Positions 3,321 to 56,788 of a stretch of 64,000 nt of DNA are shown one piece after another. Under the pieces are notes generated by a model that saw only the letters and a program-made list of their open reading frames with translations, did not search any database and was not told the origin of the DNA. The stretch is taken from IMG/VR virus record IMGVR_UViG_3300020472_000018, positions 1 through 64,000 of that record; one strand, given 5' to 3'. The position numbers were made by a program, and so were the translations under genes. The DNA is from a virus. Within the stretch, counting starts at the first letter, position 1. Each line of letters begins with the position of its first letter.

Positions 3321-4163
3321 GTGCCAGCCCCAATTCCAAAGAAAATATCTCAGATATTGCCCAAGTTTCAGAATGTTGCTCAAACTTCTCATTACTTAGT
3401 TAAGTTTGGTTTACCTTCTAAAGGTGGTTTAAGAAGTCATCTTCAAGATAAGGGAGTGGATGTTAGATTTTCTGGTGAGGATATAGGTTTACTTTGCAGT
3501 TCCGCAGTTTTACCTGGATCATCTATGGCTACTGTTGCTGTAACTGGTGAGTATCAGGGATTAGTTGAAATAATACCCCATACTAGAAATTTTACAAGAA
3601 TTAAGTTAGAATTTTATGTTGATAATAGATATAAATCATTGAAATTTCTAGAGCATTGGATGGAATATATTACTGGTGGTTCTAGTGCAGGGACATTAGA
3701 TGATGGTTATCATTTTAAACTTCATTATCCAGAGGAATATAGATCAGAATCAACCAAAATTATTAAATTTGAAAAGAATTATAGACAATTCTTAGAGTAT
3801 AATTTTAGAGGATTATATCCTATAAATTTAAGTTCAACAAAAGTTTCTTATAAGAATTCTGATGTATTAAAAGCAACTTGTGAATTTGCTTATGAAAGAT
3901 ATATTTGTGGTGAAGCAACTTCTGCCTCAGAATCTGCAGGTACTGATCAAAATAATTCACTTAGTAGATTTGGGATGAAGGCAGGTGATGTAACTGTTAT
4001 TAATAATGAAGTTACTAAAGAGTTAGAGGCTACTATTGTAACTGGAAAGAGTGGTTGGAATCCTACAGGTGATAATGATGGTGATGGTATTTTAAATAAT
4101 CAAGATACCTTTGACCCATCTTTAGACGGTTTAAGACCTGGTGATAGGAGACCAGGTACTTAA
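3321..4163 (+). CDS. gp54: Baseplate tail-tube initiator gp54-like (tail-tube fold)
   Basis: LLCSSAVLPG, FLEHWMEYI, F.GLYP.NLSS..VSY, FAYERY; GTG start; synteny. Confidence 0.65.
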   Translation: MPAPIPKKISQILPKFQNVAQTSHYLVKFGLPSKGGLRSHLQDKGVDVRFSGEDIGLLCSSAVLPGSSMATVAVTGEYQGLVEIIPHTRNFTRIKLEFYVDNRYKSLKFLEHWMEYITGGSSAGTLDDGYHFKLHYPEEYRSESTKIIKFEKNYRQFLEYNFRGLYPINLSSTKVSYKNSDVLKATCEFAYERYICGEATSASESAGTDQNNSLSRFGMKAGDVTVINNEVTKELEATIVTGKSGWNPTGDNDGDGILNNQDTFDPSLDGLRPGDRRPGT

Positions 4164-4208: not shown

Positions 4209-4925
4209 ATGCCTTTACCAAAGATTACTGCTCCTAGCTATGAGTTGGTTATACCTTCTTCCAAAAAGAAGATTAAATTTAGACCATTTTTAGTTAAAGA
4301 GGAAAAGATCCTTATTTTGGCTATGGAAAGTCAAGATAGTAAACAGATTGCTAATGCTATAAAGGATGTTCTTACTTCTTGTATTTCAACAAGAGGTGTT
4401 AAAGTTGAAAAACTATCAACATTTGATATTGAATATCTATTTTTAAATATTCGTGGTAAGTCTGTTGGAGAACAAATTGAAGTTACTGTTACTTGTTCTG
4501 ATGATGGAAAAACACAAGTTCCAACAGTTATTAATTTAGATGAAATTCAAGTTCAATTTAGTGATGATCATTCTAGAGATATTAAATTAGATGATGATTA
4601 TACATTAAGGATGAGATATCCATCAATGGATGAATTTATTAAAACTAATTTTAATGTTGGTGATATTAGTGTTGATGATACTTTTAAATTAATTGCATCT
4701 TGTATAGAACAAGTTTATTCTGAAGAAGAATCTTGGGCAGGATCTGATTGTACAAAGAAAGAACTAACTGAATTTGTAGAGCAATTAAATTCAAAGCAAT
4801 TCAAAGAAGTTGAAAAATTCTTTGAAACAATGCCTAAACTTTCTCATAAAGTTAAAGTAACAAATCCAAATACAAAAGTTGAAAATGAACTTGTTTTAGA
4901 GGGGCTGCAGAGTTTTTTCGGGTAA
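4209..4925 (+). CDS. gp26: Baseplate hub assembly protein gp26
   Basis: MPLPKI..P.YEL..PS, FRPFLVKEEKIL, FDIEYLFLNIRGKSVGE, FFETMPKL, LEGLQSFF. Confidence 0.9.
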   Translation: MPLPKITAPSYELVIPSSKKKIKFRPFLVKEEKILILAMESQDSKQIANAIKDVLTSCISTRGVKVEKLSTFDIEYLFLNIRGKSVGEQIEVTVTCSDDGKTQVPTVINLDEIQVQFSDDHSRDIKLDDDYTLRMRYPSMDEFIKTNFNVGDISVDDTFKLIASCIEQVYSEEESWAGSDCTKKELTEFVEQLNSKQFKEVEKFFETMPKLSHKVKVTNPNTKVENELVLEGLQSFFG

Positions 4926-4927
4926 GT

Positions 4928-5101
4928 ATGTCGCATGAAGATCTTGCGTCATACTATCAAGTTAATTTTGCTTTAATGCAACACCATAAATATTCATTAA
5001 CAGAGCTAGAAAATATGATACCTTGGGAAAGAGAAATTTATCTCGCTCTTTTACAGCAATACATTGAAGATGAAAATTTAAAGGCACAACAAAATGGCTG
5101 A
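4928..5101 (+). CDS. gp51: Baseplate hub assembly catalyst gp51-like (57 aa); possibly made as a frameshift fusion to gp26
   Basis: MSHEDLASYYQVNFALMQHHKYSLTELENMIPWEREIYLALLQQYIEDE; missed by the ORF track (<60 aa). Confidence 0.85.
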   Translation: MSHEDLASYYQVNFALMQHHKYSLTELENMIPWEREIYLALLQQYIEDENLKAQQNG

Positions 5102-6590
5102 AATTAGATCACCATTAGGACAAATACGTGGAACACTTCGTAAAGTTTCTAATAGTGTCTTTCGTCCTCCTACACAGCAAGGTTCAAAAGAAGATTCTGT
5201 AGCAAGTAATTTAATTGCTAGAAATTCATCTTTATTGGGTGGTATTCAAAAACAAATTAATACATTAAATCAGCAGCAATCAGTAATAAACAAATCTTTA
5301 AGTATAATAAGTAAAAATTTAGTAACAGGATCAAAATTAGAAAAACAAAGACAACAAGCACAGAAAGCAAGAGAAGCTAAATTAGCAGCACAAGGATTAA
5401 GATCAGAAAAAGAAGCACAAATTGAAGGACCTCTTCAGAAAGCTCTTATGGCTCCAGTTAGAGCAGTGCAAGTTAGAACTATGAGTATTTTCACCAAACT
5501 AACTAGATTTTTAATGATATTAGCTGGTGGATGGTTATCTAATAAAATTCTTGATCTTTTTGAAGCAAATATTACAGGTAGTGTTGAAAGAATACAAGAA
5601 ATAAAGAAAAATCTTTTATCTGGATTTATGAAAGCTGGATTGGCTTTATTGCTCTTTAATCCATTTCTTGGGAAGTTAGTTTTAGGTGCAACGGCACTTG
5701 GAGTTGTTATTGATAACATAGCTAGTGGTGGTATTTTAGCAAAACCATTTAATTTTATAATGGAATGGTTGAAGGATGTAACAGATTGGTTTTCTAAAGA
5801 AGTAGATGCTGGTAACATAGAATTCAATCCTAAAAATTGGTGGTTTTTTGGAAATAATGATCAGAAAGAAAATACGAATGTGAATAAGGAGGAGGAGAAT
5901 AATAATGAAAATCCTGCAGAGAATTGGAAAGTTTTTCTAGATCCTGCTAATAAAGATGAATCAACAAATCAAAAAAATGAAATTGATACATCTAATAAGG
6001 ATAATCAATCTGGTGCTATAGAATCTAATAATAGTATTGATCTTGAAGCATTACGTTTGAAAAGAGAAAGGGGAGAGGAATTAACACAGGAAGAAAAAGA
6101 TGCATTAATAGAAGCAGAAGGTGGAAAGGATAATATTAGTCCTGCAATGATGAGTGAGATAACCGATAAGGATTTGTTGGCTGAGATAGAAGGTAAGAAA
6201 CCCTTCAGAACTGATTTTGGTCCTGGTAAATCTGGATCAGAGGAATATGCTGCAGCATTAACAGAGTATAACGAAACATACGGTCAAAGGATTAAAGATT
6301 TAAAAGCTAAGATTAATGGGAATAAAATTGATGACAATAAATTAATTAATAATAATAAAACGAATATCAAAGAAAGGACAACTAATTTAACTTCTCTTCT
6401 TGCTTCTTTATCTGATGCTACACCAACTATAGTTCCATTCCCTACAGATACTCAAGCTGCAGAATCTGGTGCAAGTGGAACTGTTTCAGTGCCTGGAGGT
6501 ACTGGTGGATCTGTCCCCGTTATAAAATCTTTTAATAAGGATAATAGTTATGTTTATCTTGCTTATAAGCATTATCAGGTAGCACCTTAA
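5094..6590 (+). CDS. Hub/tape-measure-like structural protein (coiled coil plus hydrophobic segments)
   Basis: N-terminal coiled coil, FLMILAGGWL hydrophobic segment; lies between gp51 and the hub genes. Confidence 0.5.
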   Translation: MAEIRSPLGQIRGTLRKVSNSVFRPPTQQGSKEDSVASNLIARNSSLLGGIQKQINTLNQQQSVINKSLSIISKNLVTGSKLEKQRQQAQKAREAKLAAQGLRSEKEAQIEGPLQKALMAPVRAVQVRTMSIFTKLTRFLMILAGGWLSNKILDLFEANITGSVERIQEIKKNLLSGFMKAGLALLLFNPFLGKLVLGATALGVVIDNIASGGILAKPFNFIMEWLKDVTDWFSKEVDAGNIEFNPKNWWFFGNNDQKENTNVNKEEENNNENPAENWKVFLDPANKDESTNQKNEIDTSNKDNQSGAIESNNSIDLEALRLKRERGEELTQEEKDALIEAEGGKDNISPAMMSEITDKDLLAEIEGKKPFRTDFGPGKSGSEEYAAALTEYNETYGQRIKDLKAKINGNKIDDNKLINNNKTNIKERTTNLTSLLASLSDATPTIVPFPTDTQAAESGASGTVSVPGGTGGSVPVIKSFNKDNSYVYLAYKHYQVAP

Positions 6591-55738: not shown

Positions 55739-56374
55739 ATGGTATTAGAATATCTTGTAGACACTTGGGATTATAGGTCTGAGGTACTACATCTTTTAAA
55801 GGATAGATGTTATAAGAAGGGTGATTTTACTCTTTCTTCTGGTAGAAAAACTCAACACTATGTTAATTGTAAGTCGATTACTTTAAATGGTGAATCTTTA
55901 TGTAAAATATGTCCAATGATATTGGAACATATTGAATCTAATGTTAAGGCAGTAGGTGGTCTGACTTTAGGTGCTGATCCATTGGTTACTGGTGTTGCTA
56001 TGATGGGATATGCTCTAGGTAATAATAAGATTAAACTTGCATCTTTAATTGTTCGTAAACAAGCAAAGGGGTATGGAACTAATGCTTACATAGAGGGGCC
56101 AAAATTACCTGAAGGATCTGAAGTCACAGTTCTTGAGGATGTAATTACTACAGGTGGATCTTCTATTGTAGCAGTAGAAAGATTGCGTGATGCTGGTTAT
56201 GTAGTTAATCGTGTTATTTCTATTGTTGATAGGCAAGAAGATGGTGAGGCAGATGATAACATGAAAGAAGCAAATTTAGAACTTATAAGTTTGTTTACAT
56301 TACAGGATTTAATTGAAGATAAGTCTCCTGTTCGTACTTTAAAAAGTCCAAAAATGATGGTGGATTATGAGTAG
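55739..56374 (+). CDS. pyrE: Orotate phosphoribosyltransferase
   Basis: GDFTLSSG, GGLTLGADP, VRKQAKGYG, VLEDVITTGGS PRPP motif. Confidence 0.95.
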   Translation: MVLEYLVDTWDYRSEVLHLLKDRCYKKGDFTLSSGRKTQHYVNCKSITLNGESLCKICPMILEHIESNVKAVGGLTLGADPLVTGVAMMGYALGNNKIKLASLIVRKQAKGYGTNAYIEGPKLPEGSEVTVLEDVITTGGSSIVAVERLRDAGYVVNRVISIVDRQEDGEADDNMKEANLELISLFTLQDLIEDKSPVRTLKSPKMMVDYE

Positions 56375-56612
56375 AAAAATACATCCTAGTGAATACTTTT
56401 CTAATGATTATTGGAAGTATAATTTAGATCCACCAGAATATAAAAGGGGAAGTAGGCACAATAAAATAGGAATGTGGATTATGTACATTTTCTATGGTAT
56501 TGTTCTTGTACAATTATTACACGCATTTACTGTAATACCATTTTTCCCTATTACCTTTTCTATACTATTAGGTTTAGGATTTATTTGCTATGTTGCTTGG
56601 AGGGCAAGTTGA
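56367..56612 (+). CDS. Small membrane protein (two TM segments)
   Basis: Two hydrophobic stretches. Confidence 0.65.
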   Translation: MSRKIHPSEYFSNDYWKYNLDPPEYKRGSRHNKIGMWIMYIFYGIVLVQLLHAFTVIPFFPITFSILLGLGFICYVAWRAS

Positions 56613-56788
56613 GATTAACTGAAGATGTAATTAACAAGATTGCAGTATTAATGCAACATACCAAAATGAATGGTGAAACCAACTGGAAAGATGGTGATGA
56701 GATTGATGTGTGTCTTGGAGGCACATTTGCTGGAGATAAGTTTATCTCTATTATAAACAGAACACGAAGTAACACAACTAAGAAATGA
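56609..56788 (+). CDS. Hypothetical protein (~59 aa)
   Basis: TTG start overlapping the upstream TGA; MRLTEDVINKIAVLM..WKDGDEIDVC. Confidence 0.6.
   Translation: MRLTEDVINKIAVLMQHTKMNGETNWKDGDEIDVCLGGTFAGDKFISIINRTRSNTTKK

What the first reader, a model, noticed from the sequence alone, without database searches (positions are those of the whole stretch)
4899..4955. Complete -1 programmed frameshift signal that would fuse gp26 to gp51
Seen: gp26 ends AGT TTT TTC GGG TAA, giving an in-frame slippery heptamer T_TTT_TTC (4913-4919). An SD-like GAGGGG (4899-4904) lies 8 nt upstream. A hairpin starts 5 nt downstream (4925-4955: AGTATG/CATACT plus CGCA/TGCG) and buries the gp51 ATG, which has no good SD of its own. 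A -1 slip reads CGG GTA AGT ATG, exactly in frame with gp51, giving a 297-aa fusion (...LQSFFRVSMSHEDL...). Established: lambda G/GT and P2 E/E' tail-assembly chaperones use -1 frameshifts directly upstream of the tape-measure gene. Here two tape-measure-like genes follow. Inference: cyanophage gp26/gp51 are a G/GT-like pair, which I do not recall being annotated in T4-like phages.
Basis: partly seen in the sequence, partly recalled or inferred. Interest (0 to 1): 0.8.

Follow-up and report, generated by a model that had tools for sequence, protein, structure and literature searches.

The report
Frameshift joining cyanophage gp26 to gp51
The tail-assembly gene 26 of this ocean cyanophage very probably makes a short and a long protein, because some ribosomes slip back one base on a strictly conserved TTTTTTC and read on into "gene 51". 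The signal is real, but the gp26/gp51 chaperone pair and its poly-T slip site in T4-like phages were already published in 2022.

Summary
A slip would give a 297-aa fusion.

It is far more than chance:
- Of 149 related loci, from 99% down to about 25% identity (cyanophages, pelagiphage, Vibrio, Aeromonas, Cronobacter, Sinorhizobium, Pseudomonas and Stenotrophomonas myophages), 147 have T_TTT_TTY in phase, one has TTTTTTG, and only the T4-type phage has none.
- The slip site lies 0-3 codons before the stop.
- A gp51-like -1 ORF of 54-64 codons follows.
- In 28 of 102 distinct junctions no ATG precedes the conserved gp51 N-terminus.

The T4-type phage lacks the site and instead carries a second gene, gp51. 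That gene is a gp26-like domain fused in frame to the same C-terminal domain.

The predicted fold of the gp26 N-terminal domain resembles the HK97 tail assembly chaperone (Z 7.6).

An SD-like GAGG 10-11 nt upstream is widespread. The downstream hairpin is conserved only in this clade.

Papers citing Vladimirov, Gautam and Davidson (Virology 2022) report both points. This scan has also found the same slip repeatedly on other DNA. GenBank records still annotate two separate genes.

The parts
3321..4163 (+). tail-tube-like gene directly upstream (gp54/gp19-type)
   Evidence: PF23849 Phage_TTP_2 E 2.7e-17, phrog_45 tail tube. The same tube-then-gp26 order is seen in HTVC008M, phiN3, Vibrio D479, pf16, Aeromonas 65 and Cronobacter S13.
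4209..4925 (+). gp26, the short chaperone form (TAC-N), 238 aa
   Evidence: PF12322 T4_baseplate E 1.1e-76, phrog_150. AlphaFold2 model has pLDDT 94.5. Residues 1-91 match HK97 tail assembly chaperone 2ob9 at Z 7.6, with 3fgx at 7.8 and 3klu at 7.3; the next hit is 4.8.
4899..4904 (+). SD-like GAGGGG upstream of the slip site (candidate stimulator)
   Evidence: GGAG/GAGG/AGGA lies within 18 nt upstream in 89 of 102 distinct junctions, against 12% of control windows. The spacing is mostly 10-11 nt. The Glu codon here is GAG 77: GAA 11, against 643: 1543 elsewhere in gp26 genes.
4913..4919 (+). slippery heptamer T_TTT_TTC, in phase
   Evidence: Among 149 loci: TTTTTTC in 109, TTTTTTT in 37, TTTTTTG in 1, none in 1. 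In 79 close relatives AGT, TTT and TTC show no synonymous variation.
4923..4925 (+). 0-frame stop of gp26, one codon after the heptamer
   Evidence: The stop lies 0-3 codons after the heptamer in all 102 distinct junctions. The codon between and the stop itself vary freely.
4921..4958 (+). downstream hairpin (core stem 4926-4935 / 4945-4954) that contains the gp51 ATG
   Evidence: -14.8 kcal/mol, z -4.3. 90.5% of cells are paired in 49 clade sequences. The lowest synonymous variation of the whole gp26+gp51 alignment lies here: AGT, CTT, TCA and TAC are invariant. No such structure is found in 36 junctions of other clades.
4919..5101 (+). -1 frame extension (R-V-S plus the annotated 57-aa gp51 ORF 4928-5101), the C-terminal domain of the long form
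   Evidence: phrog_634, and also positions 238-278 of the gp26 profile phrog_150. It aligns to residues 207-246 of T4-type gp51, E 6e-7. The -1 ORF runs 54-64 codons past the stop in all relatives.
4209..5101 (+). predicted long form gp26-gp51 (TAC-NC), 297 aa, join(4209..4919, 4919..5101)
   Evidence: Inferred from the parts above. T4-type gp51 has the same two-domain architecture in one ORF.
5094..6590 (+). next gene, candidate tape measure (gp29 equivalent); identity not shown
   Evidence: The evidence is position only. There is no Pfam or PHROG hit. The nearest named Atlas cluster is PF25671 T4_Tape_measure at 0.92, a lead only. The HTVC008M gene in the equivalent place is annotated 'putative tail tape measure', but BLASTP shows no similarity to it.

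Best explanation
gp26 and 'gp51' are one recoded gene for the tail assembly chaperone pair of this P-SSM2-like cyanomyovirus.

Most ribosomes read gp26 to its stop and make the 238-aa short form. A minority slip back one base when the two tRNA-Phe sit on U_UUU_UUC (4913-4919), one codon before the stop. They then read CGG GUA AGU AUG... and add the 60-residue gp51 domain, which gives a 297-aa long form.

The SD-like GAGG 10 nt upstream probably raises the slip rate by pairing with 16S rRNA, as in dnaX. In this clade the hairpin starting 5-6 nt downstream probably does the same by pausing the ribosome.

By analogy with lambda G/GT, the common N-domain would hold the tape measure protein and the extra C-domain would recruit tube subunits. 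This step is inferred and was not tested here.

Shown: the sequence anatomy, its conservation, homology to T4 gp26/gp51, and the chaperone-like fold. Inferred: that slipping occurs, its rate, and the roles of the two stimulators.
For: Sequence verified.

Conservation of the slip site:
- 147 of 149 loci have T_TTT_TTY in phase and one more has TTTTTTG, each followed by a gp51-like -1 ORF of 54-64 codons. The loci reach about 25-35% identity and span several virus families.
- 28 of 102 distinct junctions have no ATG, and 21 have no ATG/GTG/TTG, before the conserved gp51 N-terminal motif. That domain cannot start on its own there. Annotators accordingly truncate or miss it.

Relation to T4:
- T4-type gp51 is PF12322 over residues 1-201 (E 4e-55) plus a C-terminus homologous to this gp51 (E 6e-7). 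T4-type gp26 ends GAG TTC TTT GAG TTA CTA TAA, with no slip site.
- P-SSM2, HTVC008M, Aeromonas 65 and Vibrio D479 each have one PF12322 copy. PP01 has two.

Other support:
- The phrog_150 profile spans both ORFs.
- Fold match to HK97 TAC 2ob9 at Z 7.6, and to 3fgx and 3klu, well above the next hit.
- SD-like element and GAG codon bias.
- Hairpin energy and synonymous constraint.
- Literature: PMC10274946 and PMC12846349, citing Vladimirov et al. 2022.
Against: - There is no direct evidence of the long product (no proteomics, ribosome profiling or reporter).
- In this clade an ATG two bases after the stop is invariant, so free gp51 by termination-reinitiation is possible.
- The FF motif is a conserved protein feature, which by itself keeps most of the T run.
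- The related sequences are not independent samples, so codon-bias counts overstate significance.
- The hairpin is absent in most other clades. One inner pair is broken in 16 of 49 clade sequences.
- The tape-measure identity of the next gene is unproven.
- I could not read Vladimirov et al. 2022 itself. [quoted passage not shown]
Confidence: 0.8

Rival explanations
1. Transcriptional slippage: the RNA polymerase adds one extra U on the T run. A fraction of mRNAs then encode the same fused protein (…SFFRVSM…) with no ribosomal slip.
For: The site is a pure T run of 6 (81 junctions), 7 (13) or 8 (8) bases. A one-base insertion gives the identical protein. The title of Vladimirov et al. [quoted passage not shown]
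Against: Six T's, as in this window and in 81 of 102 junctions, is short for efficient polymerase slippage (established knowledge: runs of about 8-9 or more are usual). The conserved SD-like element at the dnaX-type distance, and the clade's downstream hairpin, are ribosome-directed features. The run always starts exactly at codon position 3.
Confidence: 0.08
2. Two ordinary coupled genes: gp51 is made only as a free 57-aa protein by termination-reinitiation at UAA-GU-AUG, and the T run merely encodes a conserved Phe-Phe.
For: The ATG, and the 2-nt gap after the stop, are invariant in this clade. All public records annotate two genes.
Against: - It does not explain the invariant synonymous choices AGT-TTT-TTC.
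- It does not explain the -1 phase kept in every lineage.
- It does not explain the 28 junctions with no ATG before the conserved motif.
- It does not explain the fused T4 gp51, or the one-copy/two-copy pattern.
- There is no SD before the ATG, and the ATG lies inside the hairpin.
Confidence: 0.05
3. Both routes operate in this clade: the frameshift makes the fusion, and terminating ribosomes also reinitiate at the AUG to give free gp51. The locus would then have three products.
For: ATG is conserved in the P-SSM2-like clade, S-PRM1 and L106-111, whereas other clades have Leu at this position. A stop-GU-AUG spacing is typical of coupling.
Against: The AUG is also part of the conserved stem (GUAUG/CAUAC), which alone would fix these bases. 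No free short form is needed in clades without the ATG or in T4.
Confidence: 0.2

Closest known systems
Phage T4 gp26 (208 aa) and gp51 (249 aa), identified as the tail assembly chaperones of T4-like phages (Vladimirov, Gautam, Davidson, Virology 2022;566:9-15, as cited in PMC10274946 and PMC12846349)
   Same: Same protein families. The window's gp26 is PF12322, and its gp51 aligns to the C-terminus of T4-type gp51. The predicted long form has the same two-domain architecture as T4 gp51.
   Different: T4-type phages encode the short and long forms as two divergently transcribed genes, with no slip site at the end of gene 26. Here there is one gene copy plus a -1 slip site.
Lambda gpG/gpGT and P2 E/E+E' tail assembly chaperone frameshift (Levin et al. 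1993; Christie et al. 2002; Xu, Hendrix, Duda 2004; named in PMC12859696)
   Same: A short ORF and a -1 extension from an in-phase XXXYYYZ heptamer near its 3' end. The gene lies after the tube gene and before the presumed tape measure. The N-domain fold resembles a solved TAC, HK97 2ob9.
   Different: No detectable sequence similarity. gp26 is about twice as long, with an extra C-terminal part of about 145 residues. The heptamer is U-based, one codon from the stop. In this clade the extension also has its own ATG.
E. coli dnaX -1 frameshift signal (SD-like element, A_AAA_AAG, downstream stem-loop)
   Same: The same three-part layout: SD-like GAGG 10 nt upstream, the heptamer, then a stem-loop 5-6 nt downstream.
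   Different: The slip here extends the protein rather than truncating it. The heptamer is U_UUU_UUC, read by tRNA-Phe. The stem-loop is present only in part of the family.

Membership tests
Tail assembly chaperone pair with programmed -1 frameshift (lambda G/GT type; TAC-N/TAC-NC) | [quoted passage not shown] | tested here: met
   T_TTT_TTC at 4913-4919, one codon before the stop. An in-phase slippery heptamer is conserved in 148 of 149 loci: T_TTT_TTY in 147 and TTTTTTG in one.
Tail assembly chaperone pair with programmed -1 frameshift (lambda G/GT type; TAC-N/TAC-NC) | Conserved, stop-free -1 extension that often has no start of its own | tested here: met
   The -1 ORF runs 54-64 codons past the stop in all loci. 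28 of 102 junctions have no ATG before the conserved motif.
Tail assembly chaperone pair with programmed -1 frameshift (lambda G/GT type; TAC-N/TAC-NC) | Gene lies between the tail tube gene and the tape measure gene | tested here: inconclusive
   A tube-like gene lies upstream (PF23849). The downstream ORF has no family match, only a weak Atlas lead to T4_Tape_measure and the annotation of the HTVC008M equivalent.
Tail assembly chaperone pair with programmed -1 frameshift (lambda G/GT type; TAC-N/TAC-NC) | Fold of the common domain like solved TACs | tested here: met
   VIA-align on residues 1-91: HK97 TAC 2ob9 Z 7.6 (rmsd 3.8, 85 aligned), 3fgx Z 7.8, 3klu Z 7.3, next hit 4.8. In Foldseek, 2ob9 was the row with the highest probability (0.66) but E 0.74. 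Support is moderate.
Tail assembly chaperone pair with programmed -1 frameshift (lambda G/GT type; TAC-N/TAC-NC) | Both products are made at a fixed low ratio, are needed for tail assembly and are absent from virions | not testable with these tools
   Needs proteomics, reporters and genetics.
T4 gp26/gp51 family (PF12322 T4_baseplate) | Significant match of the short form to PF12322 | tested here: met
   E 1.1e-76 over profile positions 2-218.
T4 gp26/gp51 family (PF12322 T4_baseplate) | Long form = PF12322 domain plus gp51 C-terminal domain | tested here: met
   PP01 gp51 residues 1-201 match PF12322 (E 4.3e-55). Residues 207-246 align to the window's gp51 (E 6e-7). The window reaches this architecture only through the -1 shift.
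T4 gp26/gp51 family (PF12322 T4_baseplate) | Either two gene copies or one copy with a slip site | tested here: met
   One copy in P-SSM2, HTVC008M, Aeromonas 65 and Vibrio D479; two in PP01. The window's own record is a 30%-complete fragment with one copy.
dnaX-type tripartite -1 frameshift signal | SD-like element about 10-14 nt upstream of the heptamer | tested here: met
   GAGG ends 10 nt upstream. Present in 89 of 102 junctions against 12% of controls. The GAG codon is favoured 77:11. The effect itself was not tested.
dnaX-type tripartite -1 frameshift signal | Stable stem-loop 5-9 nt downstream | tested here: met
   Met for this window and its clade. Not a family-wide feature: 36 junctions of other clades have median z -0.6.

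The most novel reading that the evidence does not exclude
In the P-SSM2-like clade the locus may give three products: gp26, the frameshifted gp26-gp51 fusion, and a free 57-aa gp51 made by termination-reinitiation at UAA-GU-AUG. The clade-specific hairpin that contains the AUG would both stimulate the slip and gate reinitiation. This would be a tunable three-way output not described for tail chaperone genes.
Probability: 0.15. Interest if true: 0.45.

Novelty: already known. Interest (0 to 1): 0.3.

Why it matters
It places the T4-like phages, the abundant ocean cyanomyoviruses among them, under the general rule that long-tailed phages make a short and a long tail assembly chaperone from one locus. 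It also shows that T4's two separate genes are the derived state.

The practical value lies in annotation. Reference records (P-SSM2, HTVC008M, Vibrio, Aeromonas and Cronobacter phages) list gp51 as a separate, truncated or missing gene under the old names 'baseplate hub' and 'hub assembly catalyst'. They could instead carry a ribosomal-slippage join.

Because the point is published, and this scan has found it repeatedly, the finding adds detail rather than a discovery. The details are the SD-like element, the clade-specific hairpin and the one-copy/two-copy pattern.

Tried and rejected
I could not inspect the DNA behind the rare fused ORFs from metagenomes.
- Those fused ORFs are mostly singletons with garbled junctions, probably homopolymer errors. 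I did not use them as evidence. P0296 and P0297 look like genuine in-frame fusions, but this is unverified.
- Rfam gave no match in 4700-5200. No terminator was found and promoter-like sites did not exceed the shuffled expectation.
- NCBIfam has no family for gp26, gp51 or T4-type gp51.
- A profile search of PDB sequences found nothing. Foldseek found nothing significant.
- Tape-measure identity of the next two ORFs: BLASTP against the HTVC008M putative tape measure and Pfam at E up to 1 gave nothing.
- A second window of low synonymous variation in mid-gp26 (about 4650-4690) turned out to be a gapped region of AT-favoured two-fold codons, not a signal.
- A search of the protein database around gp26 returned only near relatives of 235-240 aa. 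The exhaustive representative search showed that the best 150 of 4,675 clusters all end at the same place, with no fusions among them.
- Vladimirov et al. 2022 is not held in the library. What it says is taken from two citing papers only.

Full report
**The sequence**

The window is a fragment of an uncultured relative of Prochlorococcus phage P-SSM2. It shares 82% nucleotide identity over gp26-gp51, and the record is 75.9 kb and about 30% complete.

Every coordinate in the finding is right.
- gp26 is 4209-4925 and ends AGT TTT TTC GGG TAA.
- T_TTT_TTC occupies 4913-4919 in the X_XXY_YYZ phase.
- GAGGGG is at 4899-4904.
- gp51 (4928-5101) is in the -1 phase. A slip reads CGG GTA AGT ATG and gives 237 + 3 + 57 = 297 residues.
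- Region 4920-4965 folds into a hairpin of -14.8 kcal/mol, z -4.3. Its 5' arm contains the ATG.

**Gene identities**

- gp26 is PF12322 (T4_baseplate, E 1e-76).
- The 57-aa ORF matches phrog_634. It also matches positions 238-278 of the gp26 profile phrog_150, so some members of that family are fused.
- The upstream gene is tail-tube-like (PF23849).
- Downstream come two ORFs with no family match, then a gp48-like and a gp5-like gene.

**Is it chance?**

The heptamer alone is common. The AT-rich window has 96 in-phase heptamers in 20,374 codons. Only two of them lead into a -1 ORF that runs more than 50 codons beyond the 0-frame stop.

Conservation settles the question. I collected 149 loci:
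- 80 close IMG/VR relatives.
- 60 more distant ones found with other queries.
- Annotated genomes of S-PRM1, Pelagibacter phage HTVC008M, Sinorhizobium phiN3, Vibrio D479, Pseudomonas pf16, Stenotrophomonas Mendera, Aeromonas 65, Cronobacter S13 and the T4-type PP01.

Of these, 109 have TTTTTTC, 37 have TTTTTTT and one has TTTTTTG, always in the same phase. The site lies 0-3 codons before the gp26 stop, and a -1 ORF of 54-64 codons follows that is recognisably gp51. The codon between the heptamer and the stop, and the stop itself, vary freely.

In 79 distinct close relatives the mean synonymous codon entropy is 0.85 bit. It is zero at AGT (68 of 68 Ser), TTT (79 of 79) and TTC (79 of 79).

**gp51 often cannot start on its own**

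- In 28 of 102 distinct junctions no ATG lies in the open -1 frame before the conserved N-terminal motif (...LSHxxLxxYY...).
- In 21 junctions there is no ATG, GTG or TTG at all.
- Public annotation reflects this. HTVC008M and Vibrio D479 gp51 are annotated from internal Met codons (45 and 30 aa), Aeromonas 65 has a 26-aa stub, and Cronobacter S13 has nothing.

**The T4 comparison**

- In the T4-type phage PP01, gene 26 ends GAG TTC TTT GAG TTA CTA TAA with no slip site. Gene 25 follows it, and gene 51 is a separate divergent gene.
- Its 249-aa gp51 matches the whole gp26 profile PF12322 over residues 1-201 (E 4e-55). Residues 207-246 align to the window's 57-aa gp51 (E 6e-7).
- T4 gp51 is therefore the hard-wired equivalent of the predicted fusion.
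- Complete genomes with the slip site (P-SSM2, HTVC008M, Aeromonas 65, Vibrio D479) have exactly one PF12322 copy. PP01 has two.

**Chaperone fold**

AlphaFold2 on 92 diverse homologues gave a confident gp26 model, pLDDT 94.5.

Foldseek found nothing significant, though the HK97 tail assembly chaperone 2ob9 was the row with the highest probability.

The exhaustive VIA-align search put three small phage or prophage proteins on top for residues 1-91:
- 3fgx, Z 7.8.
- HK97 TAC 2ob9, Z 7.6, rmsd 3.8 Å over 85 residues.
- YqbN 3klu, Z 7.3.

The next hit scored 4.8, and the lactococcal p2 chaperone 3d8l also appears lower down. This is moderate support for a TAC-like N-domain.

**Stimulators**

*SD-like element.* An SD-like 4-mer (GGAG, GAGG or AGGA) lies within 18 nt upstream in 89 of 102 junctions, against 12% of control windows. 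The spacing is mostly 10-11 nt, as in dnaX. The Glu codon there is GAG 77: GAA 11, against 643: 1543 elsewhere in the same genes. The sequences are related, so these counts are indicative, not a probability.

*Hairpin.* It is conserved within the window's clade: 90.5% of cells are paired, and one pair switches U-A to G-C but is unpaired in 16 of 49 sequences. This stretch has the lowest synonymous variation of the whole alignment. AGT, CTT, TCA and TAC are invariant, the last against the AT bias. In 36 junctions of other clades the downstream 48 nt fold no better than controls (median z -0.6). One pelagiphage-like locus, L147, has an unrelated 12-bp stem in the same place. The hairpin is therefore a clade-level addition, not part of the core signal.

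**Rivals**

- *Transcriptional slippage.* It would give the same protein. The run is only six T's here and in 81 of 102 junctions, and the SD-like element and hairpin point to the ribosome.
- *Independent translation of gp51.* It is conceivable in this clade, where the ATG two bases after the stop is invariant. It cannot explain the family-wide pattern, and the ATG bases are also fixed by the stem.
- *A mixed, three-product reading.* This remains open.

**Literature and novelty**

- Vladimirov, Gautam and Davidson (Virology 2022;566:9-15) is not held.
- PMC10274946 summarises it as showing that some T4-like phages carry a short TAC gene plus a separate fused long gene instead of frameshifting.
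- PMC12846349 cites it for poly-T slippery sequences in TAC-N genes of T4-like phages.
- This scan has reached the same reading on many other phage contigs. One of those reports said no publication existed, which these citations contradict.
- RefSeq P-SSM2 still lists gp26 and gp51 as separate genes with no slippage join.

**Verdict**

Confidence is about 0.8 for a ribosomal -1 slip, with a further 0.08 or so for transcriptional slippage giving the same fusion. The phenomenon is already known, so interest is low to moderate.

Noticed in passing
window 56367-56788: An in-phase TTTCCCT heptamer in the 81-aa ORF 56367-56612 opens a -1 frame of 79 codons that runs 57 codons past the stop and overlaps ORF 56474-56788. 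It is the only other heptamer in the window with a long -1 continuation. It is a poor slip sequence and probably just an overlapping gene.
   Followed up: no
L082:2496-2683, L084:2499-2680, L088:3206-3372, L089:3170-3332: Public records annotate gp51 from an internal Met (HTVC008M 45 aa, Vibrio D479 30 aa, Aeromonas 65 26 aa) or not at all (Cronobacter S13). The conserved -1 frame starts at the gp26 slip site in each.
   Followed up: yes
L147 (IMG/VR contig, 62% to HTVC008M gp26), 48 nt after the heptamer: A perfect 12-bp stem (-16.6 kcal/mol, z -5.5) starts at the stop codon. It is unrelated in sequence to the window's hairpin and shifted by one codon in register. This suggests that downstream structure arose more than once.
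   Followed up: partly
L132: The only junction with T_TTT_TTG (Leu in the A site) instead of TTY. It still has the SD-like GAGGG and a 62-codon gp51-like -1 ORF.
   Followed up: no
proteins P0296, P0297 (299 aa): Two distinct metagenomic proteins carry the gp26 and gp51 domains in one frame (...GIGAFFKVAMAH...). They may be naturally hard-wired long forms outside the T4 group. The other fused singletons have garbled junctions typical of homopolymer errors.
   Followed up: partly
precomputed Pfam column: The gp51 domain carries PF28602 in the collection's precomputed annotation. The local Pfam copy gave no such match for the gp51 ORF at E up to 1, so I could not read that family's name or description.
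   Followed up: no
L086:3379-3618 (PP01): The T4-type record annotates an internal in-frame product 26' (the last 79 residues of gp26), a second way in which this gene family makes two products. No equivalent was looked for in the cyanophage.
   Followed up: no
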